Origin: Catajapyx aquilonaris | Lineage: Eukaryota | Direction of reading: 5' to 3' | DNA length: 64,000 nt | Assembly: GCA_000934665.2 (NCBI GenBank) | Contig: JYFJ02001931.1 | Span: forward strand, 1-64,000 | Shown here: one piece after another, positions 17,684 through 55,496 of the stretch | Layout of the letters: each line of letters starts with the position of its first letter | Position numbering within the stretch: the stretch's first letter is position 1 | Notes under the pieces: generated by a model | What the model saw: only the letters and a program-made list of their open reading frames with translations | Databases searched by the model: none | Told to the model about the DNA's origin: nothing | Made by a program: the position numbers and the translations under genes

Positions 17684-17758
<75 letters not shown>

Positions 17759-20700: not shown

Positions 20701-20935
20701 GAATTTTTTACGCATTTTTCCTATCCTTGCGAGGAATTTTGTCATTACGAGGTAGTTTTCCTGTACCTCATAGTGAACACACGCCTCACAAGGACAGGGA
20801 AAAATCGAAAAATACCTCATAAAGACAGTAAAAATATATTTCACCAAAATTTCGTGTTTCCTTGCAGGTTAGGTTAGGTTAGGTTAGTTTTAAATTTTAA
20901 ATTTTGGAAAAACCTCACAAGGATAGGAATGCGCG

Positions 20936-20975
<40 letters not shown>

Positions 20976-22144
20976 GGGTTGCTTCAAGACCAGGATAAAG
21001 TGGCCAAAAGTATTTGAACCCGATAGTACACGTCAATTTTAATCGGGAACCCTACCATAGTTAAAAAGGTATTGAGGAATGTTTGGGTTTCCATTCGGGA
21101 GAATCACCCTGCATATTGATGATATGGGTATGAATTTATTTTTCGCTTACTGTAGATGATGTCTCAAAATGGTTGGAAAAACATGCAGACATGTTTAAAT
21201 GTATTTATTTATTTATTTTAACCAAAATCGCAAACATCGCTAAATAGGAAATGGGGTATATTCGTAAAGTCTGCAAGCTCTTTTAGAAAATTCAAGCAGA
21301 ATTAATTTGCACTTGTGACTTCATTATATACCTTAATCGGCTAACTTGCCAACCATTCCCAACCATGTAACCATAATAACATGTGCGTTTGTGACTTCAA
21401 TGCCAAAGGTCAATAGTAATATTGTTTATTTGGTTACGTGTTTTTTATGTCGTTATAAGAAGGGGCCTCTAACATATGACTCCTGCCCCCGACCTCAGAC
21501 AAGCTCTGCAGGGGCCTAGTCTGGACTATTTGGAGCATGTTCCAAGACAAAAAAAATTCCTCACTGCACATCTTATAGAGCAGGGGTTCCCAACCTGGGG
21601 GTCATGACCCCCCAAGGGACCCCCCAAGGTCCAGGGGGGCCGTGAGAGGCCGCGGTTATTTTTATAAATTAAAAAATAACTAAAAAATTAATAAAATAAA
21701 TTTTATAGGTAATTTCATCACGACGGTTTTTTTTCAACATCTACTAACACTCGAGGGAGAGGGGGGGGGGGTCGCATGTTACTTGACTATCATAAAAGGG
21801 GGTCGCGACCCGAAAAAGGTTGGGAACCCCTGTTATAGAGTATAGTCCTCACACAGGCATCACTCCACGTCTCGAACAGTTCAGTTGGGACAGCTTTGAG
21901 AAAGTGTTTGTTAGGCTAGAGAGTGACCAGACACTTATAAAGAATACAATTGGTGAGAAGAGCACTCTTGACATATTGGCTTGCAAAATCTGTTGCCAAG
22001 ATTCGAAAAATGCTTCTCCTGACATGATTTTTGGTTCAGTATTAGCTAAAACTTTGCGTTATCATGTAGTTACTGTATATTCATTTTCGGAGAGAATTCT
22101 GTGCAATTTTTTCGTGGCCAAACTGTATAATTAATTGTGGAACG

Positions 22145-22200
<56 letters not shown>

Positions 22201-22314
22201 GTAATAGTAGTAGTAGTAGTAGTAGTAGTACGTTCCAAAAAAAAGTAATTTAACATTTTTGTTGATCAAACACAACCGCATATCATTATTGGTGTTACTA
22301 CTACTACTACTACG

Positions 22315-22354
<40 letters not shown>

Positions 22355-22445
22355 GTAGTAGTAGTAGTAGTAGTAGTAGTACGTTCCAAAAAAAGTAATT
22401 TAACATTTTTGTTGATCAAACACAACCACATATCATTATTGGTGT

Positions 22446-22504
<59 letters not shown>

Positions 22505-25500
22505 TTTATTTTATTTTATTATTGATTACCCCACAAGGTCCAGAGGCCTTCTTCGGGGGACACACATCTCCTCTTTACATAGTATCGGGTAATTCACATT
22601 TCAATATCACAAAAAGTCAAATTCTTAATTATCAAATCAAAGAAACGAGCCAACATATAGGTATCTTCTTTAGATATATACCGAAAGAGCATGTGTAGCA
22701 GATGAGGTGGGGTTCGAGGTATTTTGACAAGATATTTTTTCCTCGCATTTCGAGAGAATCCACATTCATATATCAGATGGAACAAGGTCAGGGGTTCATC
22801 GCTCGAACACAATGTATGATACATGCTTCCTCTTTATTTAGCTTGATGTATCCAGTACTAACCCTGAAGGTCTCAGATTTGTTGCGAAGATTAGCAATCA
22901 ATCTAATCATGTTAATTGGTAGATTATAGCCAATATAATTAGCCTGCAGGTCACCAATATAGTAATCATCATAAAAGAAATACTTGTTTGATTGTTCATA
23001 TCCCGTTCGGTCGAGATGAAGCGAGTAGTCTATCAATGTCCTTATCAAAGAACCCACATCAAGACCCGCTGGATCCATTAATAAGCTAGATCCCTCCACC
23101 CCCATATTCCGTGACCAGCCATTAATTCGCTGAACCCAGTCAATTCCGGTCCCCATTGACGACTTCATGTAAGCCAATGCCTGGTGGACATATCCTTCCT
23201 GGGGCAGGTTATCTATTCTGGTTAGCCACCTAATAAGTTGTTTCAGGACATTGACAAACAGGTGTCTTCTCCCAGTTTCTAGTCTCACGAAGTAACCGGC
23301 AGTCCTTCGCGGTAGGGAGAAGAACCTCCTAATGAATTGGGTCTGTATTTTTTCAATTTCTAGAAGTTGCGCCAAGGACCATATTGGGGCTGCATAGAGG
23401 GCTGCTGGGAGGATTTGAGCATTAAAGATCCTCATTGCATGAGCAAAATTTCGAATTTTTAATTTAACTAAAGTGGGCCACATTCCATTTACAACGGCAT
23501 TTGCTTTTGCATACATCGTTTCCATCATCCTTCGATATGAAGTTGATGCTGAAAACACTACTCCCAAATATTTATACGTAGAACAAAATTCAATCGGTAT
23601 ATTCTGCGACCAATAGAACTGGAGTTTCTTAGGTATCCTATACCTTTTCTCCTAAAGACCACCACTTTTGTTTTACCAGTGTTTACACTTAACCCCTTGT
23701 CCTCGAGATATGCAGCCATTGAATTCAACAGTCTCTGTAGATAGATTGGTTGATCGCTAAGGAGCACCAGGTCATCCGCAAATTGTAAGCATCGAATCTC
23801 GATAGTTCCAGGCCCAAAGTTAATACCCGGTATACCTTTATCCTCCCATACTTTAGATAAATCGGCCAGAAAGAGATTAAACAATAATGGTGACAAGCGT
23901 TCGCCCTGCAGCACACCTTTGGTAATTTGAATGTCAGGCAACCCTTCGAATCCTCCTATTACTGCTGTCCCATAAATTTTTTGAATTAGTGACATTAACC
24001 TCCCTCCTAGTCCCAGTTTACTTAAATGCTGAAATAGTTTCTGGTGAGAAACGTTATCAAAGGCTTTCGTCAAATCAAGGAAAGCTGCATACAATTTGCC
24101 CCTGGGCTTGAAAGTGTACTTCTGAATAATTGCATTCAACGTAAGAAGATGATCATAGGTAGTCCTACTCGGCCGGAAACCCAATTGAAACTCAGGTATA
24201 ATATCCCACTCTTCGGACCAATCTCTTATTCTTATCTCCATGAGAGCCGTAAGGATTTTTGTTATGTTGTTCAGGAGTGAGATGGGGCGATAATTCGCCG
24301 CTACAAGAGGGTCCCCGCTCTTCAAAATAGGTATTACTTTAACCTTGACCCATTCCTCCGGTATTGTTGTCTCATATAAAAATTTATTGAATACCAAAAG
24401 TAGCATATCTCTCAGACGCGGGGAGGGGGTCGTCCACAGTTCATTTGGCAGCAGGTCAAGGCCGGTTGCTTTGCGATTACTAAGCTTCTTCAGGGCTCTA
24501 TCTAACTCATTCATTGTAAACTCGTTATCCAGTGGGTGAGGCAGGTAAACTGATTCCAATTTAAATGAGCTTATTATTGCGGATTTATAGTAGCTCTCTA
24601 AATAGTTATGCCACAGTTCGTTTGATAATTTAACTGTTTTCGGTTTAGATTGATATTTCCTTATAGTGGTCCAGAAGTCCCTCGAGTTTTTTGATCCAAT
24701 AAGTGTTTGTAGCGTCGTTGAGAAATACAGCTTCTTTTTTGCCATTATCAGTTTCCTATACTGTCTGTTCTCATTCAAGTATCCTATTTTGTCACTTTCC
24801 TTATTTGTGTCCTGCCATTTTCTTAGTGCTGTTCTTGTCAGTCTCTTCTTACTCCTCAAACTATCATCATACCATACGGGTCCTTTTTTAACGTTCAATG
24901 ACCTCTGAGTCACCACAATGAAGCCAAAATCAACAAGCAGCGTAGTCACTGTCCTGATCAGAGATTGGGCCGCCTCCAAGGCCGATTTCTCCATCGATCC
25001 AACCACATCTAGAGCACCCATCTGGTCCTTCAAAATTCCAAACCCCCCCAGTGGTCTTATCAGTATTTTCCTTTTATCCATTAATCTCCTAGACCCACCT
25101 TTCACTCCCAGCTGCATCTCAACCGAAATAAATAAATGATCAGAGGCTATCCTATCATGTATCTTAAAATCGGTAATAATCTCCTTCAGCTCATGCGAGC
25201 ACAGTGCCATGTCAACCACACTCTGTCCCATCTTCCCTATGAAGGTGAATTCTCCCCGTGGATCCGATTTGGACATACCATTTAAAACAAACAATGAGTG
25301 GTATTCCATAAACTGTATTAACTTCTTACCCCTTTGGTTCAAGACCCTGTCTTTTGATTGCCTCTGCTCTGCATCACATACTCTGTCTCTCCAGGAGGTT
25401 CAAGACTGTAATCCGCTATCCTCGCGTTGAAGTCACCCATCAATAAAATCTTTTCGCCTTTAACATAGCAATTTTCAATTATGACATTAATCTGTGATAT

Positions 25501-27101
25501 CACTGTATCAAAAAGGGGATTTGGAGGTAGGTAGATTAAACCAAAAGTGATTTCCTTTATCGGTTCCGGAAAAGTTAATCGCAGAAAAATAAAGTACTGA
25601 CTTGACGCAGTTTCGACCGGTTTAGGTGAATCATGAGCCAACAATAACAACCCACTAGAATATCTACCATCATAGCCTTTTGCTGGAAATTCACATATTT
25701 GTCCACAATTCGAGAAGTCACAATCTCAGAAGCCCAAGTTTCTAGGAAACCATAACAACCCGGAATTTCAAAAAGATTTGAGCACTCATTTAACACATCG
25801 TTCATTGACAATCCCGCTATATTCCAGGAGCCACACGTGTATGCACCAATGGGTTCCACGCCAGAGTTTGGGTAACTTACTTGAGTTAGTATCTTGCTCA
25901 CTTGAACTTGCTTTATCACGCACTTAGATTCACTACTCTGTATGGTACTGGATTCAACAGCACACGTTTCACTTGAGGAGGGGCTCAGGTATGTCGTTGC
26001 CAGCGAATCATATGTCAAAGACTTCCTTTTCTTGCTTCACTTTTTTTGACCCCTTCCTCTCCCACTTTTGGCCGTCTTGTTTCCGGCCAGTTCCCAACCG
26101 GCATGCTGATCATCTGATTCCTCTTCGTCATCTTCAATCACCGTGTATGTACTGTACTTGCCGCAAGCGGGTTCCCTTTTGACCCATGCTCAGGTGTATT
26201 TGGAGTCTCAGACGGGGAGAGGAATCTGGATTGCTTTGGGATACGGGGTGGTTCAGAGGGAGAACGCAGCCTTTTTTGTACAGGCAGGTCCGTTACTTGA
26301 CCCTGACGTATGTGGTCATGTCGGGCTGACTTGTGGAGCTGAATTGGGTATATATCCGATCCGTCTTCTGTAACTGCATACAGTTTCTTGTCCAAAAGCA
26401 GCTTGTCTTGCCTCAGGTGTGCGATGCAGCCTCGTTCTCTTGCCTCCTTTAGGAACGGGGCCAGTAGTTTCCTTTTGTTTCTCGTCTCCATAGAGAAGTC
26501 CTCAGCAATCCTAAAGGGCGTGTCCCGCAGAAGATGACCTCTCCGCATCACCATATCTCGGTCGGGGTAGAAGGTAAATTTTGCAATGATCGGACGTAGG
26601 CCTCGGACTTGCCCCATTCGATGGACCCTCTCGAGCTGCAGTGATGTTGGGCTGGGGTGTAAATTGTGTTCCGTCAAGAAGGTCCGGAACATCACCATGG
26701 TCTGGTCCCAGGTTTCTTCTTTCTCCTCCTTAACTCCGTATATGACTACGTTGTTACGGCGGGTTTGATTTTCCAGGCGTTCCACCAACGACTCCAAGGC
26801 CATGATGCGTGACCTCATCTCGCCATTTGACTTCTGTTGGTCAGCTACAAATGTCCCAAATTTCTGGTCCCACCTCTTCTCCATCTCGGATATCGCCGTC
26901 GTCAAGGAGGTGTCGAGTTCCATCTTCAACTTCCCCACTCGGTCATCAAGTAGGCCCGCTATCTGCTCGATAGATGCCATCTTCTTCTCGATTGCACGAA
27001 AGTGGCCCTATTGCACTCTTCTCACTTATCGACACGCTGTTAAAAAACACACGTCTGGTCTGGGTCAACTCTAGAGAGAGTGTGTACTACTACTACTACT
27101 A

Positions 27102-27159
<58 letters not shown>

Positions 27160-27648
27160 ATGATATGTGGTTGTGTTTGATCAACAAAAATGTAAAATTA
27201 CTTCTCAACTCAGTGTTTCGTAAGATTTTTTTTACAAGACAACAGCTTTAATAATGTGTAATATTGAAATTTAAATGATACAGAAAAACACTGACATAAT
27301 CTCATTGACCAATGATTGCAGGGAAACATTAACCGTGCTGAAGGTATACTTTAAGGAATTGACTTATATTCGGTACAACAGAGATCTCACCTACAGATGG
27401 TTCGATTTACTAGGTAAGAATTTCCCTAATGTACTGTATGATTCATGGATATATTCAGCTTCGATTGATTTTCTGGAAGTATGGTGTAATGAGTGCATGA
27501 TATTAAAATTATTTTCTCAGCTGCTTTTGGTGGAATATCGGGCTTGTTCACTGGATTCAGCCTCATCAGTGCAGTTGAACTTGTGTATTACTTCACTATC
27601 AGGCCTTCTGCTCGATGGAATGCATATTTCGGGAGGAAGAAAGAATGA
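13008..27648 (+). CDS. Pickpocket-like DEG/ENaC subunit, array gene 2 (~618 aa; ~9.7 kb TE-filled intron)
   Basis: Exons 13008-13010 (ATG only, inferred), 13211-13506, 13594-13803, 14128-14281, 14484-14641, 14746-15049, 15290-15566, 17305-17358, 17450-17630, 27322-27413, 27521-27648 sum to 1857 nt in frame. Motifs: YCDNTSVHGFKY, IPFPGVTICN, TDEGYCYSFN, GAGPTMGL, TM2 AAFGGISGLFTGFSLISAVELVY. Confidence 0.92.
13875..14003. mobile_element. MITE family B copy (right end degenerate)
   Basis: ttgttttggccactttatcctggtcttgaagcaacccttc ... gaagggttgcttcaagaccaggataaagttgccaaaacaa. Confidence 0.8.
17684..17758. repeat. (ATT)n microsatellite
   Basis: About 25 perfect units in the gene 2 intron. Confidence 0.97.
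19030..19697. mobile_element. Foldback/MITE family D, partial copy
   Basis: Shares gtgggtcacaactc, aattcttggac.tgtgac, aaaaaggcctcatttt and gtgacctaaggaacatg with 104-1135; ends catagtg|ta. Confidence 0.65.
20589..21026. mobile_element. MITE family B (TA-flanked), nested in 20026-21111
   Basis: ta|ctatcgggttcaaatacttttggccac..cctggtcttgaagcaacc ... ggttgcttcaagaccaggataaagtggccaaaagtatttgaacccgatag|ta; same family at 13875-14003 and 56878-57019. Confidence 0.82.
20677..20937. mobile_element. Small TIR element with internal (TTAGG)n, nested inside the family B copy
   Basis: ggcgcgtattgctatcctagtgagg ... cctcacaaggataggaatgcgcgcc; internal aggttaggttaggttaggttag. Absent from the other family B copies. 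Confidence 0.65.
21581..21832. mobile_element. hAT-type MITE with 8-bp TSD TTATAGAG
   Basis: ttatagag|caggggttcccaacct ... aggttgggaacccctg|ttatagag. Confidence 0.9.
22139..22503. repeat. Compound tandem repeat of palindromic (TAC)n(TAG)n blocks with a ~60-bp spacer
   Basis: Spacer tacgttccaaaaaaagtaatttaacatttttgttgatcaaacacaacc(g/a)catatcattattggtgt occurs twice between microsatellite blocks. Confidence 0.92.
22594..25832 (-). pseudogene. LINE ORF2 (APE endonuclease + reverse transcriptase + CCHC), broken by about four frameshifts
   Basis: Consecutive ORF-track pieces 25575-26018, 25339-25650, 23558-25342, 22788-23567 and 22594-22824 each carry the next ORF2 motifs in a different frame. 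Confidence 0.88.
26138..26980 (-). CDS. LINE ORF1 protein (coiled coil + L1-ORF1p-like RRM)
   Basis: 280-aa ORF with N-terminal heptads followed by RRNNVVIYGVKE, ERVHRMG, RPIIAKF and IAEDFS..R..RK.L, which are typical of RRM-type LINE ORF1 proteins. Confidence 0.85.
   Translation of the reverse strand: MASIEQIAGLLDDRVGKLKMELDTSLTTAISEMEKRWDQKFGTFVADQQKSNGEMRSRIMALESLVERLENQTRRNNVVIYGVKEEKEETWDQTMVMFRTFLTEHNLHPSPTSLQLERVHRMGQVRGLRPIIAKFTFYPDRDMVMRRGHLLRDTPFRIAEDFSMETRNKRKLLAPFLKEARERGCIAHLRQDKLLLDKKLYAVTEDGSDIYPIQLHKSARHDHIRQGQVTDLPVQKRLRSPSEPPRIPKQSRFLSPSETPNTPEHGSKGNPLAASTVHTR
27085..27201. repeat. (TAC)n(TAG)n block plus inverted copy of the spacer seen at 22245-22435
   Basis: tgatatgtggttgtgtttgatcaacaaaaatgtaaaattac is the reverse complement of the left-flank spacer. 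Confidence 0.9.
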
Positions 27649-28294
27649 GCATAATAAAACGAATAATGATTATTGGAAACAATTTAAGTTTTTATTTAGT
27701 AGTATTAGTATGTGGATATTATGACGATCATGCGTGAATTTTCTTACGCCATAAAAAGTAAGGGGAGTAGTTTTGCTTTTCAAAAATGGCATATAATTAA
27801 ACTGGAATGTATTTGGCGCGTCCAAATGAAAAGGTGACGAGCCCTCAACATGATATTAAAAAATCCGAGTGCGCCTATTTGTTGCTGGTTCCATACGGGA
27901 CTTCACAGCGCGTGACATGTGTATGAAGTCGCGTGTTCTTGAACATGAATCTCTATAATTATTGCATAAACGGGGAAATTATCATATGACTCTCATGATA
28001 TGAAAATAAACACATGATAAAATATCAATTATGAGTATTTTATCAGTAGACAATGGCCATCAACCCCAAGACAGCAGTGGAAAATAATTAGGCCTACAAT
28101 TATTGGAGCCATGGCCGTACACAGTATTCCTTTTCAGGGGGGGTATGACGCCAGCGTTGGGTTATTTTTCCAATTTTTAATCTGTATACTGTATCTCAAC
28201 AAGAATATAGGTAAAATAACTAAAGTAGTAATAAGACAAATTGAAGGTCCGAAGCAGATGATGTGGTGAGGTCAATGATACCCATATTTAAATT

Positions 28295-28960: not shown

Positions 28961-30038
28961 CTAGGCCGCCAATCACAAGGCGAGACGGGTCATCGTGGGA
29001 CCAACCAGAAGAAAAGGTATAGGTAGGAACACTCGGGAGTGACACCCCAGTCCAAAAAATACAACATGTGAATGTGCGCTACTTAATTATTTTTGAAGCA
29101 AAAATAATGAGATAGTCGAGCTCTCGCATCACCTGATTTGACGCACATGGAATGGGCCAATCTTGAGTCCACGCTCTATGTCTCCTTTCTGGGACAGTAG
29201 GAAGATGATCTGTATAGAGATCTTTACTGCTGTTCCTACAGGTGAGAGTAGGCCTAATACCCTTCCAACTGGAAACAGACTTGCACACTTCCCAATTAGT
29301 CTACTGGTAGGCCTATGTGAGAACTAAGCGAGGAATGAAACTTGCTTTCTTCACCTATCTCCCTTTCCCTACATTTAACGAGTAATTTGTCGGTCACTGG
29401 TGAATATTTTCTATTTTATGAAAGGGTCATAAGAAAAAGCAAACGCAGCAGGGACTATATATAGGTATGGGTACGTGATTTCCCCAAACTCGTACTTGTA
29501 ACCCCATGGTAGGTGGATGGAACCAGGGGCACTCACACCCTGGTTGCCCTCAGGGTAGGTAGGCTATAGATCGGTCAACATAAGAACGCAACCGAATGTG
29601 CATCGCCGTGGCGCACAGGATGCAATACTGGAATCAGAAGTGAACTGTATGGCTATGGCAGTGTCAGCAATAAGTGTAATCTACAACATATCACCTCTAA
29701 TTCCAGAATTGCATCCTGTGCGCCACACTCGGTTGCGTTCTTATGTTGACCGATATAGATTGGCCAGGGTGGTCACAGATAGTCTGGATAGGGTCAGATG
29801 GCTGGGGGTAATTAGGAGCAGTGAGACACTGAAGAAATTATTGGTACAGTAGAGTTTAACTGAGAATGCAATTGTGCTAACAGCCTTTATTAATCTAAAA
29901 GAGTACCTATTTAACCAATGTTAAATAGTTTAATAATTTAAAGGCAAAATGAGGTTCTCCTCCTCCTCTCCTCCTCCTCTCCTCCTCCTCTCCTCCTCTT
30001 CATCTCCCACCTGGTCCTGCACCATCCTCACCCTCATC

Positions 30039-33000
30039 CTACCAGTCCTCGTTTTCCTCACCACTCTCCTCCTCGTCCTCGACCTCCTCGACCTCGACCC
30101 CCTCGTCCTCGATCTCCTCGTCCTCGATCTCCTCGTCCTCGACCTCCTCGTCCTCGACCTCCTCGTCCTCGACCTCCTCGACCTCGACCTCCTCGTCCTC
30201 GTCCTCCTCGTCCTCGACCTCCTCGACCTCGACCCCCTCGTCCTCGACCTCCTCGTCCTCGACCTCCTCGTCCTCGACCTCCTCGTCCTCGACCTCCTCG
30301 TCCTCGACCTCCTCGTCCTCGACCTCCTCGTCCTCGACCTCCTCGACCTCGACCCCCTCGTCCTCGACCCCCTCGTCCTCGACCTCCTCGTCCTCGACCT
30401 CCTCGTCCTCGACCTCCTCGTCTTCGTCCTCCTCGTCCTCCTCCTGGGCATCATCTTCATCTCCCACCTGGTCCTGTACGCCCTCCCCATCCTGCCAGTC
30501 CTTGTTTTCCTCACCAGTCTCCTCCAAATTGACAGCACCGCCTTCTTCAAACCGAATAGCACCGAGAACTTCCATGATCTGAGCGAGGGGTATCTCCGAC
30601 CGACCCAGCTCCGCTTCGAGGCAGAGGGAGAATAACTTGTCGTAGTCAAAGCCATCCAGCACATTCCTCTCGCCATCTACCCTAAGCAGTTCCTCAATTA
30701 ACTTCTTTTTCAATCCTCCCGATGTGTCAATGTTTCCTCGCGCAGCGATCATCGCTTTCTCAGCTGCTTCCAGCAGCCTCCTCCTGCGCTTCAACTCCTG
30801 GACCTTCAGATCCTCTACAAAGAGGAATATCTGCTCCATCTCGTGAGGGATTTTGCTGTGCAAGTACCACAGCCCCGATCCGAGCAGCGTGACTGCAGCG
30901 CCTTATTTGACAAAGAAAAACAGAGCATCTCACCATGTTTGTGGGGTTAACTAATAAATAAGACATGTCTCTGAAGCTGGCGTACCAGATGCGAGGGAAG
31001 CCCAGAAGCACCACCCTAGGTGGAGCACCACGGTGACGTCCATGTCCATTGGAATGACGAAGGACAGATGCGCCCCGTCGTCCTGGTTCCTTTGATGTAC
31101 CCACATCACCACGGTGGCCAGCATAGCGAGTCCAGATGCAATAATGAGTTTGCATGATAAGACCACTGTGTGGTAAGACATGATGTAGCCTTTTAGCCAT
31201 ACCCCCAGCGCGAAACTGTGGGTCAGAAATGAGAGGATGAGACTACATCCCATACCTCAACTGAGGATTATTTAATTCTAGTCCGCTTGGACCTGACCAG
31301 TCACCAGAGGATTTACATGTACGGTATCGATCATAATTATGAAATGGCTAGGTGTTGTACTATCACCTCGTCATCGCTGGCTACCCCTTCATGGGGCAAT
31401 ACCATGATGATTGTATGAGTGTGAGAGTGTGCTTCATTCATGGTGCATCTTATCATATGCGGGGTCTCACAAAGGCGGCTAAGTCCATTTTTTGGGGAGG
31501 GGGGGGGGGTGTAACACAAATACGTGAAGCAATAATGCATTTTAATGTCATTAGGTATTAATTGCACATTTGCGTATGTAGCTGAGCCGTGGCAACTTAT
31601 GGACGAAAAAAATTTAAAGATTGTACCAGTGAAAGTTAAGAAGTTTATGGTCATTTTATGACGGTTTTTTTTACGTAGCCGCCTTTGATCTGAGATCCCT
31701 CATATACTCATCGGCTATACTCATATTACTCATCGGCTATAGGCCCTCCAGGAAAAGACTGCATGGGTTTTCTGGGGTTTTGAAGTAGAGTTGCCGGACG
31801 CAAAAGGAACCCGGAATACCCCACATCCACGTTGAAAAAAAAAATCCCCACCTGGCTACTATACTTACCTTCATGGCAAATATAGGGACTGGGGAGGCGG
31901 GCTGAAACGTTGTAAAAACCCACCTAATCCCCGCAGTCTCTTCTTGGTTCCCCTTTATATCTCTCTGTTTCTGTTTGTCCGGGGTGAGTCATCGCCTCGA
32001 GTTAGCCACCACCGCAAACAAATATACCTTAGGCCTACTGATTTTTATCAGTTTTCTTTTGGTAATGGGTTCACTAGTACAGTTGACTCCGGATATAACA
32101 TCCTCGGGTATAACACACTTTCGCTTATAACAGACTCGAAAGGCGAATCTCGGAATACTTCCATAAGGCCCTGTCTATTTTTACTCCTGATATTGCATTT
32201 TCATTTTCACCCCACCTCGTCTACAACAGACCATTTTGAGCACTCGGCTAGATAATATTCTGTTTTTGATTATTCGACTTCCTTTCCCACGTGCAGGAAG
32301 GCAGCGAATACTGGAGGGGGATGATTTTCGTATTTGTTACAGATCTAAGCAATTCAGAATCATACTTTTTCTGGGCTATTTGGCAACAAGGAGACGGAAG
32401 AAGAAAATTACGATTTTTCTAAAAGTCCTGGGTAATTTACCCGTGAACCAATTTCAAAAAAAAAAAAAAATCTTTCAGGCATATCTGGGTTAAGGACTTT
32501 TTCCAATTATCTGCCACAATTAATCTTTATTTGACACATAATTTTACGACCAGTGTTTTTTGGGACTTTTAGCCGCCCTTGATCTGAGACCCCTCATCTT
32601 ACACTTTAGTCTACCGTTTGCATAAGTCTGTATGCAGCCTCATCATCTATTTCGGCATCAAACAATGTGCATTCCTCGTGAACCATTTCTTGCATATACG
32701 GAACAAAGCGGAAAGCGTTCCACTTTGCCCGTTCCACTTTGCCCCATACCACGTGGTCTCGATTAACATTACTTACATTTTAGCAGTGCTGATCAAATCA
32801 AACTTTAAGAACTACCATCCTGTGAAGAGTGATCTTACATACCTCAAAAATAATTGATAGCTTTGACAATGGCTTACGCCAACTTCAGGAGCTTATTCAG
32901 TGAAGGGTCGAATTTACATCCGCGACCGCTCTTAATGCAAAATGGCTGCCTGAGTCGCTGTAGTTTCAAAAAAGTGCTGCCATCAGGTAATTAATGTGCA

Positions 33001-34099
33001 TCATTATGTGGATCATTAGATGTTCCAAGATCCAGGAGATGGCACACACCGCACGGAAATTTACGCCTGTGTTTCGCTTTGCCCTCCGCTTCACTTTGCC
33101 CCACCTTCCCCTAGTGGCCATTATAAGCATTTGGAAATCAGAAAACTTTTTGTATTTGCTACAAAAGAGGCGATTTGGCCATAACAGACCTCGGTTATAA
33201 CAGACATTTTCCCACTGTTCCTTGAAGTCTGCTATGGCCGGAGTCAATTGTATAACAATTACCGGTATACAAATTAGTATTAAAGCTACAAGAGAGTGGG
33301 TATGTGTGGATGGATATAATTATGTATATGGCAATGGCCTATTATCACTCACGCGTGTATGTACCAGCCGTAGTAGGCGACGAGTCGGAACTGCCGTCCG
33401 TATTGCAGGCGATCTGGATTTATGGACGTAAACGTATTCATCCACACGTTCAATGGGGTGCTTCCTATTATCGGTACTCCGCGGGGCTCACTCGCACTAA
33501 CTTCCATATCCTGAGGCCCTGATGGTCTTTCTTTGGAACCGAAGCACTGGTATCTCACCTTGCTGTACTTGCCGAACCCTGAGAGGTATTAATACTTATC
33601 TGTTAGCAACAAGGTATGCTCACCGACTTGAATATGTTGCCACTATTATACAGCCATTACAATAAGTATCCACTTGGCACTTGTTGAGACCCAGGCGGTA
33701 GTCTATCGTCAGGGTGTGCTCTTTACCCCTCATGATCACTCTGCCTTCAACACGAGAAACCTCCCAGTCTGGGGTTCTCATCAGCACTGCAATCAAAATT
33801 ACACCAACAGCTATAGTCTACGTTGACCCTCACTCACTTGGTCAGGGGCAGCATGTGTAATATTGGAGTATTGGAGACCAAGCAAGTGCCATTTTCGCAA
33901 TGAAAAAACAATATCAATATTGTGTGTAATTATTCCATGTTCAACTCACGTAGGATTAGGAACGCCGTTCCAGCCGCGCAGCCGTGGCGCACCCAAGGGA
34001 AAACGTTCTTCTGCAAAGAAATTCTAGATTAGTCGGAACTGCAGATCACTAATTGTTTCATTCGTAATATTTATGCCATTCACTCACCCAAAAGGCCAT
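30039..34099 (-). CDS. Divergent dual oxidase maturation factor (DUOXA/Nip/moladietz)-like membrane protein with long acidic C-terminal tail (~505 aa); start uncertain
   Basis: Minus-strand GT-AG exons 34099-34088 (tentative), 34010-33950, 33786-33661, 33578-33353, 31215-30986, 30901-30039 sum to 1518 nt in frame. Product: KNVFPWVRHGCAAGTAFLILLLMRTPDWEV...DYRLGLNK...LQYGRQFRLVAYYGWYIHAFALGVWL...ASGLAMLATVVMW...LHLGWCFWASLASGAAVTLLGSGLWYLHSKIPHEM. This matches from memory the DUOXA motifs SEW-V, GL, RQYRLAG-Y and G-x-FW..L..G....LLG.....PH. Confidence 0.72.
30065..30445 (-). repeat. Coding 15-bp minisatellite (GAGGACGAGGAGGTC)n encoding EDEEV repeats
   Basis: Roughly two dozen tandem, slightly variant 15-mers (plus strand gacctcctcgtcctc) in the last exon of the DUOXA-like gene. 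Confidence 0.95.
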
Positions 34100-36199: not shown

Positions 36200-36515
36200 C
36201 CCCACGGGGGGGAGTTATGCTACTCCTTAGGGGGGGTGGGTTACCACCATTGGAATTTGATTTTTGGAGCGAGTTTAAGAAGATCTTAATTAGTGTACTC
36301 CAAGGGTGGGTGGGAGGGGATGTGCAAAGTGCAAGTGCAATGTCTCTAATCGTCATTTTGTGAACTCCCCCGGGTGGCTTAGTCTATCGGAAATTGCCAC
36401 CCGAAACGAAGCCAGAGATGGTCCAACTCTGCACGAAAGAAGGTGGGAACCCCGGGTGGGGATTGAACCCGGGACCTTAACTTCCGTGGGCGCGCGCGTT
36501 ACCGCGGCGCCACTC
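36200..36515 (-). mobile_element. tRNA-derived SINE (family shared with 8880-9190)
   Basis: Minus strand gtggcgccgcggtaacgcg..cccgggttcaatcccc; shares the blocks ttaccaccattgg, tttaagaagatcttaatta and gtcattttgtgaactccccc. Confidence 0.72.
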
Positions 36516-36550
36516 CGTGTCCCCCATGAAGCGACATAATTATATAGTTA

Positions 36551-36655
36551 CACTAGCCGCGGAGCCCGTTCTTCGCACGGCCTGTTTCCATGATTATCAC
36601 CAACAAAAACCCGTTGCCATGGACAAACAAACAAACAAACAAACTTTGCCTTATA
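36551..36655 (+). mobile_element. Possible Helitron/Helentron-type short repeat
   Basis: actagccgcggagcccgttcttcgcacgg head and (acaa)n tail resemble insect non-autonomous Helitron-like repeats; from pattern memory only. Confidence 0.35.
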
Positions 36656-37099
36656 AACACCTGCCACTGAAATATTTCCCACCCTGGTTTGTTTTCTTAC
36701 ATAATACCGATTTTTTTTTTACTTGTACTGCATAATTATAAGGCGACAATCTGAATCACTGTAAATGACGTAAGGTAGTGGAAGTGAACCGTTCTTCTTG
36801 AACTTCTGAATAATTAATTGATACCTGGTACTGCACCATATCAGGGATGATAACTTCTCATTATTCTCTGATGTGATCTCGGCAAAAGGAAAGGAAGGTG
36901 CGATATTCACGCTGTTACTGCAGAAACAGTTAGGTCAACATAGCAACATAACGACTTCTACCGGGTAATAGCAACATGGTGACCCTGCCACCTAGTCACG
37001 CTACCCTTTCATACAGTTGAGTATTAGGTCACGAATGCAACGCAATGACATTTGCATGAAATATTTCAAGGGTGTAGGCAGGCACACTCTCTGCAGAAA

Positions 37100-40000
37100 A
37101 TGTCTCGAAAAAGCGAATACTTGGAATGGACAAGGCGGAAGAGCAAGGTTCGGGGTTGGATCACAGGAAAAGATATTGTGCCAACTTACTCCTGGGAAAA
37201 GGAACTCGGGATTTCAAGGTGGATCAACAAAACGGTGCAATTGCAGTCGTTTTCGGACGGCGAAGATAAGCCTAAGGAGACTAGGTGTGAAGGAATCAGA
37301 CACACTGTCCACGATTATTGTACCAACACATCACTTCACGGATTCAAGTACATTACCGGTGATAACTTCATATTAGTGGAAAGGTAAGTACCAACTATGA
37401 AGTTCTAGCTTATACTGCAGAACGCATCCTGGCGCTTAAGGAATAAAAATGTTAATATTTAGTAAATGCATACATAGCACAAAATTATGATCTTTTGGCT
37501 CAAGTGACAGATCTCAAATTATTACTATTATTAAAATTAAACTTATGGGGACATGCATTTAAATGAAAATATTGGTGTTTCCAAACTTTGTGCTAGATGA
37601 AACTTTATTAAATGCACTATGTTCTTCACTTTCATATTAAACGTTGTTATTGGCTCACGACGCGTCGAGCAGAATTTTTTGGATAGTGAGCTGTGCACTG
37701 GCTCTGGTATCGTGCGTTTACTTTCTACAACCGGTTGTATACCGATACATCGAGGGCGCCATTCAAACCTCGGTGGCTTCTACAAACGAGCCCATTTGGA
37801 ACGTTCCGTTCCCTGGAGTTACAATATGCAATACGAACAAAGTATCCCAAAAATTACTTCGTAGAGCAGCAAGAAGGGAACCGTAAGTACAGTACATGCT
37901 CATGTGTCTCAAGTACGTATTAAAATACTGTGTTTTAATAAACTTGTTTTCAGCTGGAAAACATATGGGTACAATGTAACCGCTACTATCGCCTCCTTGA
38001 TGGCTACTTATAATCAGCTGGAAATAACCAGACGTACCAAAATCGATGAGAAATATCTGCAAGCGATTCATAACGAAGGGCAGAAGGTGGATCAATTAAT
38101 GCAAGACGTAAGTATTTTTATGAGATTAGCATTCTGTCTCTGTCACAAAGTGTTGATTAACTCTTATATCCTGTACCAATCATTGAAATAACAGAGGGTA
38201 ATTTATTGAAAATAAAAATCCCTATATTATTGTAAACAAATAGGGGCCTACTACAGGCCTAATATAGGCAAAACACGACGCAATATCAGATAATATCAAT
38301 ACATGAGGGGCATCTTTTAATGTGCAACTTGTTCACCATGCGCATAATAAATAGGAAACTTGGCTTTTTAATCATTTCATTCTTGGAAGTGTGATATTAG
38401 TATAATATATTCGAAAGTGAGAGCACAAAAAACCAGTCCTTGCCCTTCATGTAAATATCAAAAGGTCAGCTATTTCTATAGGCCTACTCTCCACCTGCTT
38501 GAAGTGATGTAATGACAATCCTGAGCCACATGGGAGCAAGACAGTCATTATTCTCAGAATGACACAATATGTAATAGCCGAGTGTCACAAAAACGTATAA
38601 AAATGTAATGCTATTGATAACGCCATGCAACATGATTTTTGTCCATGGAAATTCATCGCTATTTCCATGTTCCTTAGGTCCCTCGTAACTCATAATGCCA
38701 ATCATTTTGCCCGGATTTAAAAAAAATACTGTATTAGGTAAATATTGAAGTAGGCCTGTGAGAACGTTACTCGTGTGTATTATGATAAATAAGAAAACAT
38801 TTTTATGATAAAAAGAGTAACGGTAGATTTTGGCGCAAGAGTTGTTAATTGATTTAACAGGATCATAATTATAGAACCCTCGCGAATGGCCACTGCCAAG
38901 TGAGTAAAAGTGTGTTCGCAAGCTCGCGAGAACCGGTTGGTGCGGGTGAATTCGGGCGAGAAGACAACGGACGAAAAAAAGGCTTATCGCCCTCGATACA
39001 ACCAATTCTCGCGAGGTTGTGAGCACACGCACCTTAATATCTGACACGGCCAGGCTCGATTCTAGCAGGGAAATGACAAATTATGAGTCGCTCCCTGACC
39101 TCTGGTCATATTTTCCATCTTACCACTCCCCCCCCCCCACCCCGCTTCATGACTGACCTTTCTTAATCGGAATTAAATAAGCGCAATACCAAATAATGCA
39201 ATGTGCAATGGCAGGATTAGAGCTTCTCATAAAATGCTCAACAATAATAATTTGTGACAAGTATCGTTTTAAAACAACTTTTTTTTCCATTTTTATGTAG
39301 GGTATGCAGCAAGTTTAATATTACAAGATAATAATTGTTGCAGGTAATGCAGCCTATCAACAAAATGGCTGTTCGATGTTGGTGGTTAGGAAGAGTAGTT
39401 TCAAACTGCAGTAAGCTATTTTCCCTGCGGCGCACTGACGAAGGCTATTGTTGGGGGTTTAACACTGTCGAGATGAGAACGGAGTTGCCAGATTACAGGT
39501 TCAGGAAGCAATATATTGCTCTACTTATTGAATCAAAAGGTCACTGACTGAATAATGTCACAATTCCAGGCCAGAACATGACCACGGAATTGAAGACGAC
39601 GACGACATTGCTGGAAACGAGACCAGAAAAAAACGCCAAACTGCCAATAGCGGTACAGCAGGAGGGACCATACAAACCCACCACTCTCTGGATTCCCTAA
39701 ACGTGGAAGGATCAGATGACTTTAGACGGGTCAATGGAGCTGGACCCATTATGGGGTTGTCAATAATGCTTAACCCAGATACGGATGATTATTTTGAAAC
39801 TACCAACGAGGTGTATGGATTCAAGGTAGCCTAGGTATTTTATTGATCTAGAATTCTAGAACATCAGGAATGAGAATATGAACTCGAGTGTGGGGCATGT
39901 TTGGAATTGAATAAATCATTACACTCCTAGAAGGCGAGCTATATCAATAATTATTGCCGGAAGTTCATGGAAGGCGGAAAAATGGCAATAATGGCCTTGC

Positions 40001-41828
40001 ATCTTATAGTTCCCAGCTTACAAAAGCTACATAATATTCAAATTGATTAAAGGGCACAATATCTTTTTCTTTTCTCACAGGTTGTTATCCATAATAGTGA
40101 AGACTTTCCACTGGTTTCAAGAAAAGGCTTCCTGGCATCGGCAGGAAGAGAAGTTCACGCAGCAGTTACGCCAATACGGACTGACAGTTCTCCTCACGTG
40201 AAGGAAATTTACAAGTCTAATCGGAAGTGCATATATCCTGAGGAATACACTCTGGACTTTTACCCCATGTACAGTCTTACCAACTGCGTGGTAGAATGTG
40301 CAATTCATACCATGCGACATATTTGCAAATGCCTGCCATATCTTTACAACCAACTGAGTAAGTAGACATAGTTACATGTAACAACAATATTTTTGTCACT
40401 TTGTGAACAATGTAAAAATTTAACCACCAAAGTGACATGATATCCCTATAATATATTTAGTTATTTTCAAATAAAAACATTTTCAACAGCGTATTTTTAG
40501 TCATTTAGAACTCTAATTTACCTCCATAAATACAGTATATCACAGAAATCGTAAATTAATTCTTCAAGAATTGCATATGAATTTTATATTATAAAATTAT
40601 GACTTACGGACAGATGCGATTGGGAGGAAATGAGCAGCCAGTTACCTCACAACATTGTCATGTGACAGTGTTATCACCATACTTTAATATTGCTGAAACA
40701 GTGGGTGGAATTTTCGACCCTATTAGAGTCCCCATTTTCCGTAGTTCCAAGCCCACTGCGGATAAGTAAAACCCGCGGTTAAAACCTAACTCTACTGGTA
40801 TTATATACGTTTTAAAACGTACCACTTACCCGTTAAGTTTAAACAAACATATGAAGATATCAATAAAAATAATAAGCAATAAAATAGGATAGTTACGAGT
40901 ATAACAATACAGTATTGCCGTGAAAGAACGAGTCACTGGATGTTAAAATTTAATATTTTCGTATAATATTTGCTTAATATTTTCAAACGGTGGATTACGG
41001 AGGCTCACTGTATTTTAATAAGTATTGTTCGTGGCCACATTTGGCAAGTTTCGAAGGGTTATTACAGAATGTATAACTCGCATTTCAGACAATTCTCGGC
41101 TGTGTGATTACGACGGAATAATGTGCTTACAAAATAAGTCTCGTGAGTTTACAGTTTCTAAACTTGTGATTTCTTTGTTATCCATCCTGTTCCTTGCTTT
41201 GACTGTAATATATCACCAGGAACGTTTCTGTCAATCAAGCCCCACGAAGATATTGAAGGCATCGACCACGCTGATGAATCGATGCATTCCTGTCAACACT
41301 GTAAGCCCAACTGTGAAGATACTGCCTATGTTACTGAAGTTACTGCTGCAAAGTTTCCTGCCTTTGTTAAAGACATTACATTACCATCGACAAATCAAAA
41401 TGTCATAAAGTACGTATAAGCTGTAGTTTACTGTTGCAACCTTCGAGCGACTCAGTAATGCGACCTTCATTACACAGAGCTCATCTGGTACTGCTGAGAA
41501 TTTTCTTCAAAGATATGACATTTATTCGGTACCGGAGGGATTTAGCCTATACGTTAAATGACGTCCTTGGTGAGTATGCTAATAATTACATAGCTATGTG
41601 TATATGCATGTTACTATCACTGTGATATCACTGTGATGAATTGCAGAGAGTGATGAAATGCCCTGGCTTTTTTCAGCCAGCATCGGAGGTATTGCAGGTC
41701 TATTCATAGGCTTCAGCTTCATCAGCAGTGTAGAAGTACTCTATTTCTTAACGTTGAGGCCTGTGCTTCGTCGTTCCGGATTGTGTCAAGCTAAAAAATG
41801 CCGATCCGTCTGCCCCTTCAAGAAATAA
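37100..41828 (+). CDS. Pickpocket-like DEG/ENaC subunit, array gene 3 (~607 aa)
   Basis: Exons 37100-37383, 37673-37882, 37954-38107, 39344-39498, 39570-39825, 40081-40357, 41089-41142, 41220-41409, 41478-41569, 41677-41828 sum to 1824 nt in frame. Motifs: YCTNTSLHGFKYI, VPFPGVTICN, TDEGYCWGFN, TM2 ASIGGIAGLFIGFSFISSVEVLY. Confidence 0.93.
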
Positions 41829-54970: not shown

Positions 54971-55060
54971 GCCTAAATTTTGTGTCACGATGTACGTACT
55001 TGCATCGAGACTTGCATGGTATCAGTAGGTCTACCGTATGGAAAAGCAAAGTTATATATA

Positions 55061-55496
55061 CAGGGTGTTCATGAAAAACACCGACAAACTGATAACCAGT
55101 GGCCAATGATAATGTGGGGGTCATTTTATGTAGAGGAGTCATTATGTCTACACCGCCTCATTACTGAGATAATTGACTCGTTGCTGATTAGCAATTTTTG
55201 CCTAATCGCTCCTTCTGACTTTTAAATAGAATTTACAGGTGTAACTAGCCATAGACGCCTTACCACCTGTGGGCAACAAACCAACAAAGTTCGGCCCCCA
55301 GACCTTCCAGACCCTTCTGACTGGGGAAGGGTTCGTTGGGTGGCCTAACTTCCAGGATATTTTATTCTACCTGTTTGAAGGCAATTTGCGCGGTAATGAG
55401 GCGGCCCAGGAATAATCACTCCTCTACATAATGTGATCGTCTGGTCCCTAGGTCGGAGGTGATATAGATGTGTCGGTGTTTTTCATGAACACCCTG
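55061..55496. mobile_element. Tc1/mariner-type MITE, TA-flanked (same family as 47025-47459)
   Basis: Same TIRs and internal sequence as 47025-47459 in the opposite orientation. Confidence 0.88.

What the first reader, a model, noticed from the sequence alone, without database searches (positions are those of the whole stretch)
30039..34099. Hidden spliced DUOXA-like gene embedded antisense inside a DEG/ENaC array
Seen: six GT-AG minus-strand exons join with compatible phases into a ~505-aa ORF that the ORF track shows only as unrelated fragments. It has four hydrophobic segments plus the motifs PDWEV, YRLGLN, YGRQFRLVAYY and LGWCFWASLASG..LLG..PH. Established: these are colinear with DUOXA/Nip/moladietz, the maturation factor and subunit of the H2O2-producing dual oxidase, which is usually a conserved, low-copy gene. 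This copy looks very diverged: no clear equivalent of DUOXA TM1, no N-x-S/T sequon in the first large loop, and a novel helical plus acidic tail. Inference: a neofunctionalised DUOXA paralog sitting among pickpocket channels could act as a trafficking or auxiliary subunit for them, or link ROS signalling to these channels. It could also be a chance neighbour.
Basis: partly seen in the sequence, partly recalled or inferred. Interest (0 to 1): 0.85.

Follow-up and report, generated by a model that had tools for sequence, protein, structure and literature searches.

The report
Diverged DUOXA-like gene among pickpocket channels
A probably real six-exon gene for a four-pass membrane protein, faintly related to the helper subunit of the hydrogen-peroxide-making dual oxidase, lies on the opposite strand between two sodium-channel genes; it remains a curiosity until its transcript and its partner are shown.

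Summary
Six minus-strand GT-AG exons (34099..30039) join into an open 524-codon frame with all four quoted motifs, four hydrophobic segments and no N-x-S/T. This beats chance. The five non-repeat exons score in the top 1-4% of 184 open control ORFs on a codon model trained on the window's channel exons. They beat all 2000 composition-preserving shuffles jointly, and a naive exon-chaining score ranks first of 13 segments.

The DUOXA link is real but thin. Only exon 5 hits Pfam DuoxA (21.7 bits, E 1.2e-4, below the 23.3 cut-off), colinear with profile positions 180-251 of 279. None of 179 control ORFs hit any family. No relative appeared in 1.84 billion proteins, the PDB or metagenomes.

The protein has one N-terminal hydrophobic segment where human DUOXA1 has TM1 and TM2. 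It has no glycan site and no DUOX neighbour. Its 129-residue acidic tail is encoded by a 15-nt minisatellite.

The neighbours are five pickpocket-like ASC genes; the gene lies in a spacer, not inside a channel gene. Splicing, expression and any coupling to the channels could not be tested. My reading: a fast-evolving DUOXA-family offshoot whose neighbours are probably there by chance.

The parts
34088..34099 (-). Coding part of exon 1: ATG plus 3 codons.
   Evidence: This is the first ATG after an in-frame stop 7 codons upstream. Its donor TGG|GTGAGT lies at the 99th percentile of all GT sites in the window. No longer upstream first exon with an ATG, at least 25 codons, a phase-0 donor and a hydrophobic segment was found in 34011-37050; the single candidate had a hydropathy maximum of 0.58.
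33950..34010 (-). Exon 2 (61 nt): the N-terminal peptide with F8-P9-W10 and the first half of the hydrophobic segment.
   Evidence: Acceptor at the 96th percentile, donor at the 95th. Codon score +2.5 bits in frame, best of six frames.
33628..33810 (-). Exon 3: the rest of the hydrophobic segment, PDWEV, YRLGLN and three cysteines (69, 75, 78) of the large loop.
   Evidence: Codon score in the top 2.7% of control ORFs. The acceptor is weak (42nd percentile); an in-frame alternative at 33786 reaches the 81st. The donor CAA|GTCGGT is at the 85th percentile. The stronger donor at 33624 does not fit the strong acceptor of exon 4.
33353..33578 (-). Exon 4: the second half of the large loop and YGRQFRLVAYY, at the start of the next membrane helix.
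   Evidence: Acceptor at the 97th percentile, donor at the 96th. Codon score in the top 4.3%. No Pfam hit on its own at E<=10.
30986..31215 (-). Exon 5: two membrane helices, a short loop and the start of the last helix (LGWCFWASLAS).
   Evidence: Pfam DuoxA PF10204 at 21.7 bits, E 1.2e-4, profile 180-251 of 279. Acceptor and donor both at the 97th percentile. Codon score in the top 1.6%.
30039..30901 (-). Exon 6 up to the TAG stop: the end of the last helix, about 145 residues predicted helical, then a 129-residue acidic tract.
   Evidence: The non-repeat part (30498-30899) has a codon score in the top 1.1%, and z = 2.8 against shuffles. The acceptor is weak (67th percentile). Alternatives lie at 30892 (50th percentile) and 30814 (99th percentile, would skip the last helix). 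AlphaFold2 on a single sequence gives five helices at mean pLDDT 50.
30068..30440 (.). A 15-nt minisatellite, 24.9 copies, 94% matches. It encodes the (E-V-E-D-E)n tract.
   Evidence: Tandem Repeats Finder. The tract is open in several frames on both strands, so being open is no evidence here. A unit of about 75 nt in front of the array recurs behind it, and there CAG is replaced by the TAG that ends the frame.
29886..29891 (-). AATAAA, about 150 nt after the stop. A possible poly(A) signal.
   Evidence: Read directly. This is weak evidence in A+T-rich DNA.
13190..27721 (+). Upstream neighbour: ASC (pickpocket-like) gene B, with a LINE-like element in an intron.
   Evidence: Pfam ASC exons at 13574, 15233 and 27275. 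A conserved 5' exon at 13190-13483. RVT_1 plus endonuclease ORF at 23561-25399 on the minus strand.
37073..41622 (+). Divergent neighbour: ASC gene C. Its first conserved coding exon starts about 3 kb from the ATG of the DUOXA-like gene.
   Evidence: Pfam ASC exons at 37641, 40051, 41162 and 41371. The exon at 37073-37384 is conserved in the four other ASC genes, E 1e-11 to 1e-12.

Best explanation
This is a real, intron-bearing gene for a fast-evolving, lineage-restricted offshoot of the DUOXA (dual oxidase maturation factor) family.

The protein keeps the claudin-like part of DUOXA: a large extracytoplasmic loop of about 115 residues followed by three closely spaced membrane helices. In front of the loop it has a single 21-residue hydrophobic segment where human DUOXA1 has TM1 and TM2. 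Behind the last helix it carries a cytosolic helical region and a minisatellite-encoded poly-acidic tail.

By inference from what DUOXA does, it most likely acts as an escort and stable subunit that lets a multi-pass membrane partner leave the ER and reach the surface. The tail has 19 D-x-E motifs, a pattern I recall as a di-acidic ER-export signal, and this would fit such a role.

The element that in the human complex touches DUOX from the first helix is absent or fused. The N-terminal peptide may lie on the wrong side of the membrane.

The position between pickpocket-type channel genes is most likely chance.

Shown: the open spliced frame, its coding-like statistics, the sub-threshold DuoxA match, the hydropathy pattern and the neighbours. 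Inferred: transcription, homology beyond exon 5, topology and function.
For: Gene-likeness.
- The codon model puts all five non-repeat exons in the top 1.1-4.3% of 184 open control ORFs.
- Jointly they give z = 3.9, with 0 of 2000 shuffles reaching the observed score.
- The exon-chain score ranks 1 of 13 at both intron penalties.
- 7 of 10 splice sites lie at or above the 95th percentile.
- AATAAA lies about 150 nt after the stop.

Family.
- DuoxA is the best match of the exon-5 ORF (E 1.2e-4; next is UPF0220 at 0.029) and the only match of the read-through piece.
- The match is nearly gapless: 78 residues against 72 profile positions, at the expected C-terminal third.
- 0 of 125 other ORFs of 75 aa or more hit any family at E<=1e-3, and 33 of those 125 have a TM-like segment. 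0 of 54 ORFs of 45-74 aa hit any family at E<=0.01.
- F8-P9-W10 in the model stands where the human structure paper places the DUOX-contacting F8, F10 and Y11 (passages of PMC7794343).
- The same paper says four of the five DUOXA1 helices and the loop are claudin-like. The language-model look-alikes of exon 5 were claudin-3 and clarin, at a weak 0.76.

Divergence.
- No relative at E<=1e-3 among 1.84 billion representatives other than 4 tandem-repeat artefacts.
- No second copy in the window.
Against: - The DuoxA score (21.7 bits; 21.4 with the read-through piece) is below Pfam's cut-off of 23.3 and rests on one exon rich in membrane helices.
- Exons 2, 3, 4 and the start of exon 6 give no DuoxA hit, even at E<=10 for exons 3, 4 and the exon-6 start.
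- phmmer of exons 3, 4, 5 and of exon 5 plus 6 finds no DUOXA1 chain in the PDB at E<=10.
- There are four, not five, hydrophobic segments, and no N-x-S/T.
- No DUOX-type domain was found in 197 ORFs of the window.
- The Atlas named claudin and clarin, not DuoxA, and gave nothing for exon 4.
- Two acceptors are weak, and a strong in-frame acceptor would skip the last helix.
- No transcript evidence and no orthologue are available, so a young pseudogene cannot be excluded.
- The spliced protein as a whole could not be given to Pfam, to a fold predictor or to a fold search.
Confidence: 0.5

Rival explanations
1. It is the species' ordinary DUOXA (mol/NIP orthologue), only fast-evolving, and still matures and partners DUOX.
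For: The DuoxA hit is colinear. Aromatic residues at positions 8 and 10 match the DUOX-contacting N-terminal peptide described in PMC7794343. I recall that DUOXA is usually single-copy in invertebrates, so any DuoxA-like gene has a fair prior of being the one.
Against: A conserved orthologue should give clear Pfam hits on every exon and clear relatives. Instead three core exons give nothing, and exon 5 finds no relative among 1.84 billion proteins. The channel exons of the same window score 50-82 bits each, so the lineage as a whole is not extremely diverged. One of the two N-terminal helices is missing and there is no glycan site. No DUOX gene lies within 30 kb, whereas DUOX/DUOXA are among the most conserved head-to-head pairs in human (passages of PMC2871058).
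Confidence: 0.1
2. It is a real gene for an orphan or claudin-superfamily tetraspan that is not specifically related to DUOXA. On this view the Pfam hit reflects shared hydrophobic make-up or the common claudin-like fold.
For: The score is below threshold and confined to the helix-rich exon. The Atlas look-alikes are claudin-3 and clarin. The hydropathy pattern is claudin-like, with four hydrophobic segments and a large first loop (N-in/C-in topology is my inference from the flanking charges). The first loop has W40 and then G-L-N-K-C69 ... C75, C78, which recalls the claudin W-GLW-C-C signature as I remember it.
Against: No claudin, PMP22, clarin or other tetraspan family appears in Pfam for any exon, even at E<=10. 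DuoxA is the best hit, about 250-fold better in E-value than the only other one. Hydrophobic control ORFs give no hits.
Confidence: 0.17
3. It is not a working gene: either a decaying copy of a DUOXA-like gene that is no longer expressed, or a chance chain of open frames.
For: No RNA run was listed and no annotated protein was found. There is no relative anywhere. A helix is missing. The stop codon sits in a duplicated unit where the other copy has CAG. The tail is a minisatellite open in many frames. Two acceptors are weak. With free choice of GT and AG sites almost any region can be chained into an open frame.
Against: All six exons are open with compatible phases. Coding statistics are on a par with the neighbouring channel exons and far above controls. 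GC3 exceeds overall GC in all five non-repeat exons. The Pfam hit argues against pure chance.
Confidence: 0.13
4. One reading: a neofunctionalised DUOXA paralogue that escorts or modulates the neighbouring pickpocket channels.
For: It sits inside the array, divergent from ASC gene C with about 3 kb between the start codons. As I recall, claudin-superfamily proteins do serve as auxiliary subunits of ion channels, for example the TARP/gamma subunits. DUOXA itself is an ER-exit factor that stays bound as a subunit (PMC7794343).
Against: Adjacency is the only evidence. Only one of four inter-channel spacers holds such a gene, and there is no remnant in the others. Three kilobases is not a tight shared promoter. 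Co-expression, synteny and binding could not be tested.
Confidence: 0.05

Closest known systems
DUOXA1/DUOXA2 (vertebrates) and mol/NIP (Drosophila): dual oxidase maturation factor, Pfam DuoxA PF10204
   Same: Exon 5 aligns with profile positions 180-251 of 279, which cover the last three helices. A large loop precedes these helices. Aromatic residues stand at positions 8 and 10 of the N-terminus, as with F8 and F10 of human DUOXA1. The C-terminal tail is cytosolic and of free sequence.
   Different: The score is below the family cut-off. There are four hydrophobic segments instead of five helices. There is no N-glycan site, whereas human DUOXA1 carries a glycan at N109. No DUOX gene lies head-to-head. 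The tail is 274 residues long with a minisatellite-coded acidic tract. There is no detectable pairwise similarity to solved DUOXA1 chains.
Claudin/PMP22/clarin superfamily of four-helix membrane proteins, including channel auxiliary subunits of the TARP/gamma type (recalled)
   Same: It has four hydrophobic segments with a large first extracytoplasmic loop bearing cysteines. The weak language-model look-alikes were claudin-3 and clarin-1. The DUOXA1 core itself is described as claudin-like (PMC7794343).
   Different: No Pfam match to any of these families for any exon. The first loop is about twice as long as a claudin's, as far as I recall.
Tandem arrays of pickpocket (DEG/ENaC) genes in arthropods
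   Same: Five ASC genes lie on one strand, with the same exon pattern and a conserved 5' exon. The best solved relative is Pickpocket 26, E 2.5e-12.
   Different: This describes the neighbourhood, not the gene. The DUOXA-like gene is an unrelated insert on the other strand in one spacer.

Membership tests
DUOXA / Pfam DuoxA (PF10204) | Match to the family profile at or above Pfam's gathering score (23.3 bits) | tested here: inconclusive
   Exon 5 alone gives 21.7 bits, E 1.2e-4. Exon 5, intron and start of exon 6 read through give 21.4 bits. Exons 2, 3, 4 and the exon-6 start give none. The spliced protein as a whole could not be submitted, so the proper whole-protein score is unknown.
DUOXA / Pfam DuoxA (PF10204) | Five transmembrane helices: TM1 plus a claudin-like four-helix bundle (PMC7794343, passages) | tested here: not met
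   Hydropathy shows segments at 17-35, 178-196 and 221-248, and I read a weaker one at about 152-172 from the sequence. Only one segment precedes the large loop. No extra exon fits in the 77-nt and 139-nt introns, and no upstream first exon was found.
DUOXA / Pfam DuoxA (PF10204) | Extracellular N-terminal peptide whose aromatic residues (F8, F10, Y11 in human) dock on DUOX | tested here: inconclusive
   The model has F8-P9-W10-V11. However, with a single following helix and K5 and R12 in front of it, the peptide would be expected in the cytosol. That expectation is my inference from the positive-inside rule.
DUOXA / Pfam DuoxA (PF10204) | Glycosylated claudin-like domain between TM2 and TM3 (N109 in human) | tested here: not met
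   A loop of about 115 residues is present, but the protein has no N-x-S/T at all. The loop's fold could not be tested because it is split between exons 3 and 4.
DUOXA / Pfam DuoxA (PF10204) | A DUOX partner gene, classically head-to-head (PMC2871058, passages) | tested here: not met
   No peroxidase, ferric-reductase, FAD-binding or NAD-binding domain appeared in 197 ORFs across the 64-kb window. The rest of the genome is not held.
DUOXA / Pfam DuoxA (PF10204) | Supports ER exit and activity of DUOX | not testable with these tools
   This needs co-expression and an H2O2 assay.
Claudin/PMP22 superfamily | Match to PF00822 or related profiles | tested here: not met
   No such family was listed for any exon at E<=1 or E<=10. 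There are only weak Atlas look-alikes at 0.76.
Claudin/PMP22 superfamily | Four helices with a large first extracellular loop carrying the W...GLW..C...C signature (signature recalled) | tested here: inconclusive
   The four-segment pattern is met. The loop has W40 and G-L-N-K-C69, C75 and C78, which is only an approximate fit to a motif quoted from memory.
ASC / DEG-ENaC (the neighbours, not the gene) | Pfam ASC PF00858 above its cut-off | tested here: met
   17 of 143 ORFs hit ASC, all on the plus strand, 10 of them above the 23.6-bit cut-off and up to 82 bits. They form five genes. The best solved relative is Pickpocket 26.

The most novel reading that the evidence does not exclude
A DUOXA-derived tetraspan that has shed the DUOX-docking first helix has been recruited as an ER-export escort or auxiliary subunit for the pickpocket channels that surround it. 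Its repeated di-acidic tail would supply the export signal. This would be the first dedicated accessory subunit of DEG/ENaC channels drawn from the claudin-like or DUOXA fold.
Probability: 0.05. Interest if true: 0.75.

Novelty: new variant of a known kind. Interest (0 to 1): 0.3.

Why it matters
DUOXA is known as a conserved, low-copy partner dedicated to one enzyme. A strongly diverged copy would show that this escort scaffold can be re-used for another client. That holds only if the copy keeps the claudin-like core, has lost one N-terminal helix and has gained a long acidic tail, and is expressed. It would also give a natural experiment on which parts of DUOXA are needed for DUOX. If it served the flanking pickpocket channels it would open a new class of DEG/ENaC accessory proteins. 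At present none of this is shown. The solid result is an unannotated, probably real membrane-protein gene with a faint DUOXA signature.

Tried and rejected
- RNA evidence. The look-up of sequencing runs listed no RNA holder for 30039-34099 (none was listed, which is not the same as none exists). Therefore no reads could be laid on the region.
- Whole genome. It is not held, so I could not search for a canonical DUOXA or DUOX and could not test synteny.
- Relatives.
  - The word-based protein search with exon 5 in 'longer' mode was blank. The same mode was also blank for an ASC exon that scores 82 bits in Pfam, so that mode is insensitive and its blanks mean little.
  - The search with exon-6 residues 1-135 in 'near' mode was blank.
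  - Exhaustive phmmer of exon 5 gave 4 hits at E<=1e-3. All four are tandem-repeat proteins matched by 4-10 weak stretches, with unrelated Pfam content, and I rejected them as artefacts.
  - Two metagenome scans, with exon 5 and with the exon-6 N-part, found nothing.
  - Earlier findings of this scan held nothing, by place, sequence or words.
- PDB by sequence. Exons 3, 4, 5 and the read-through piece found no DUOXA1. The only rows were multicystatin, an antibody chain, a viral A6 protein and a VP1, at E 0.04-1.2, which I take as chance.
- Read-through of intron 5. The intron is 84 nt and in frame, and I read its three stops as X to join exons 5 and 6 for Pfam. There was no gain: 21.4 bits.
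- Atlas. Exon 4 gave no usable hit.
- Structure. The exon-6 tail folded without an alignment gave pLDDT 50.1, too poor for a fold search, so none was run. The core could not be folded because it is split over exons. A spliced sequence is not accepted by the tools and I did not submit one.
- A longer 5' exon encoding a missing first helix was not found in 34011-37050.
- A second copy or remnant in other spacers was not found, by tblastn at E<=50 or by self-blastn.
- Literature. In the 20 papers listed of the 31 that held any of 'PF10204', 'DUOXA-like', 'DuoxA domain' or 'moladietz', none held 'DUOXA-like' or 'DuoxA domain'.


Full report
**What is there**

The window is eukaryotic DNA, about 40% G+C, and no whole genome is held for it. 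The exons are 34099-34088, 34010-33950, 33810-33628, 33578-33353, 31215-30986 and 30901-30039. Every intron is GT..AG, the phases fit, and the frame is open for 524 codons up to a TAG.

The four quoted motifs are present at residues 38, 62, 145 and 227. Hydrophobic segments lie at 17-35, 178-196 and 221-248. A fourth, weaker one at about 152-172 is my reading of the sequence; it did not reach the script's cut-off. There is no N-x-S/T sequon in the whole protein.

The last 129 residues hold 95 D/E and no K/R. They are encoded by a 15-nt minisatellite of 24.9 copies at 30068-30440. A unit of about 75 nt in front of the array recurs behind it. The stop codon TAG stands where the first copy has CAG.

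**Is it more than chance?**

Open frames of this size are common here: the window has 153 of 75 aa or more. With free choice of GT and AG sites almost anything can be chained, so I used three controls.

- Codon model. I trained a codon log-odds table on 1031 codons of the window's ASC exons. The five non-repeat exons score 0.085-0.145 bits per codon, which places them in the top 1.1-4.3% of 184 open control ORFs. This is like the ASC exons themselves under leave-one-out. The proposed frame is the best of six for all five exons, but that is partly trivial because the other frames contain stops.
- Composition control. Against 2000 mononucleotide shuffles, with stops not penalised, single exons give z = 0.9-2.8 and the five together give z = 3.9, with 0 of 2000 shuffles reaching the observed score. 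For comparison, 138 control ORFs have mean z of -0.2 and sd 1.07.
- Exon chaining. I wrote a naive chaining program that combines the codon score, a generic splice weight table and a fixed intron penalty. The region scores 44.9 or 31.0. Twelve control segments reach at most 26.7 or 19.5, and twelve ASC-bearing segments span 8.8-65.6 or 7.5-55.4. The program recovers parts of exons 3, 4, 5 and 6 but also inserts spurious mini-exons, so it supports a gene here rather than the exact model.

The splice weight table is recalled and approximate, and the same table was applied to the test region and to the controls.

**Splice sites**

Four of five donors and three of five acceptors lie at or above the 95th percentile of all GT or AG sites in the window. 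The weak points and alternatives are:

- The exon-3 acceptor is at the 42nd percentile. An in-frame alternative at 33786, at the 81st percentile, would drop eight hydrophobic residues.
- The exon-3 donor is at the 85th percentile.
- The exon-6 acceptor is at the 67th percentile. An in-frame alternative lies at 30892.
- A very strong in-frame acceptor at 30814 (99th percentile) would skip the last helix.

The ATG exon has only four codons. It is the first ATG after an in-frame stop, and its donor is at the 99th percentile. No longer upstream first exon was found. An AATAAA lies about 150 nt after the stop. No RNA run could be listed, so no junction is confirmed.

**What family**

Each exon was scanned against Pfam on its own, because a spliced sequence cannot be handed to the tools.

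- Only exon 5 matches anything: DuoxA PF10204 at 21.7 bits, E 1.2e-4, ORF residues 15-92 against profile positions 180-251 of 279. The next hit, UPF0220, is at E 0.029.
- The score is below Pfam's cut-off of 23.3 bits.
- Reading through the in-frame 84-nt intron 5, with X at its three stops, did not raise the score: 21.4 bits.
- Exons 3, 4 and the start of exon 6 give no DuoxA hit, even at E<=10.
- As a control, 143 other ORFs of 75 aa or more gave only ASC (17 ORFs) and reverse transcriptase with endonuclease (1 ORF). The remaining 125 gave nothing at E<=1e-3, although 33 of them contain a TM-like segment.
- A further 54 ORFs of 45-74 aa from the flanks and the large intron gave nothing at E<=0.01.

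So the hit is unlikely to be noise.

The human DUOX1-DUOXA1 structure paper (PMC7794343; I read the passages found) states the following:

- DUOXA1 has five helices.
- Its extracellular N-terminal peptide docks on DUOX1 through F8, F10 and Y11.
- The lower part of TM1 contacts DUOX1.
- The other four helices and the TM2-TM3 loop are claudin-like.
- N109 carries a glycan.

The model here has F8-P9-W10. It has only one 21-residue hydrophobic segment before the loop, with a central P-x-G, and no glycan site.

From memory of DUOXA sequences (a lead, not a test), that segment looks like the end of TM1 fused to the end of TM2. With K5 and R12 in front of it and D39 and E41 behind, it should insert N-in. 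That would place the N-terminal peptide in the cytosol and leave a plain claudin-type four-helix protein.

**Relatives**

None was found.

- Exhaustive phmmer of exon 5 against 1.84 billion representative proteins returned four hits at E<=1e-3. All are tandem-repeat proteins matched by many weak stretches, with unrelated domains.
- Word-based searches were blank. One of these modes also failed on a good ASC exon, so its blanks are weak evidence.
- phmmer against the PDB found no DUOXA1 for exons 3, 4, 5 or the exon 5 plus 6 piece at E<=10.
- Two metagenome scans found nothing.
- The language-model atlas gave claudin-3 and clarin-1 at 0.76 for exon 5, a weak lead, and nothing for exon 4.
- The tail, folded without an alignment, is helical at pLDDT 50, too poor for a fold search.

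A conserved DUOXA orthologue would not behave like this, and the channel exons of the same window match Pfam at 50-82 bits. So the gene is a fast-evolving offshoot rather than the standard DUOXA of a fast-evolving genome.

**Surroundings**

The plus strand carries five ASC (DEG/ENaC) genes, at about 2747-10539, 13190-27721, 37073-41622, 45605-53527 and 56651-62417 or beyond. They share the same exon pattern and a conserved 5' exon. Their best solved relative is Drosophila Pickpocket 26 (E 2.5e-12), then its partner chain, then ASIC5. 'Pickpocket' is therefore a fair name, and an arthropod is a fair guess.

The DUOXA-like gene fills about 4 kb of the roughly 9-kb spacer between the second and third ASC genes, on the other strand. 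It is divergent from the third gene, with about 3 kb between the start codons. It is not inside a channel gene.

The other three spacers are 2.7-4 kb and hold no copy or remnant. No DUOX-type domain is present in the window. In human, by contrast, DUOX/DUOXA are among the ten most conserved head-to-head pairs (PMC2871058, passages).

**How it most likely works**

Shown: a gene-like spliced frame for a four-segment membrane protein with a faint, colinear DuoxA signature and a long acidic tail.

Inferred: it is a DUOXA-family offshoot that keeps the claudin-like core and, like DUOXA, escorts a multi-pass membrane partner out of the ER and stays with it. The 19 D-x-E motifs of the tail, against 2 in the first 250 residues, could act as di-acidic export signals; that role for the motif is recalled.

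The first helix is missing or fused, and the N-terminal peptide is probably cytosolic. The classical mode of binding DUOX is therefore doubtful, and the client is unknown. I put this reading at about 0.5. The rivals are:

- the ordinary DUOXA, 0.1;
- an unrelated tetraspan, 0.17;
- a dead or chance locus, 0.13;
- an accessory subunit of the neighbouring channels, 0.05.

**Novelty and verdict**

If the gene is real, it is a new variant of a known kind. In the 20 papers listed of 31 matching papers, none used 'DUOXA-like' or 'DuoxA domain'. That is no proof that such paralogues are unknown.

Its family assignment is weakly supported, and its functional idea is untested. Interest is modest (0.3) until a transcript, a whole-protein profile or fold match and a partner are shown.

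Noticed in passing
window 22791-27007, minus strand: A LINE-like retrotransposon lies inside an intron of the second ASC gene. A 613-aa open ORF (23561-25399) carries RVT_1 (E 2e-34) and an endonuclease domain. Further long minus-strand ORFs flank it (22791-23651, 25342-26036, 26141-27007). It is possibly a young, near-intact copy.
   Followed up: partly
window 29567-29757: A nested inverted repeat lies about 280 nt downstream of the gene's stop. Its arms are 34 nt (94% complementary) and 41 nt (88%), and the whole is about 190 nt. It resembles a MITE or a hairpin-forming element.
   Followed up: partly
window 29965-30075 and 30425-30530: The 15-nt minisatellite is flanked on both sides by copies of the same unit of about 75 nt (82% column identity). 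The gene's TAG stop lies in the distal copy where the proximal copy has CAG, followed by a 4-nt indel. The 3' end of the frame is therefore recent and unstable.
   Followed up: yes
window 30814: A very strong in-frame acceptor (99th percentile) lies inside exon 6. If used, it would give an isoform lacking the last membrane helix.
   Followed up: partly
window 2747-2938, 13190-13483, 37073-37384, 45605-45799, 56651-56836: A 5' coding exon conserved among all five ASC genes (29-41% identity at protein level, E 1e-11 to 1e-12) has no Pfam hit of its own. It fixes the starts of the channel genes.
   Followed up: partly
window 47013-47463 and 55057-55508 (inverted, 96%); also 4064-4438: A dispersed repeat family of about 450 nt is present in several inter-channel spacers. 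Another family is shared by 93-1112, 18978-19600 and 47462-48437.
   Followed up: no
window 22145-22504: A direct tandem duplication of about 150-210 nt at 97% identity lies next to the LINE-like element.
   Followed up: no
window 14105: There is a single N in the window, inside the second ASC gene.
   Followed up: no
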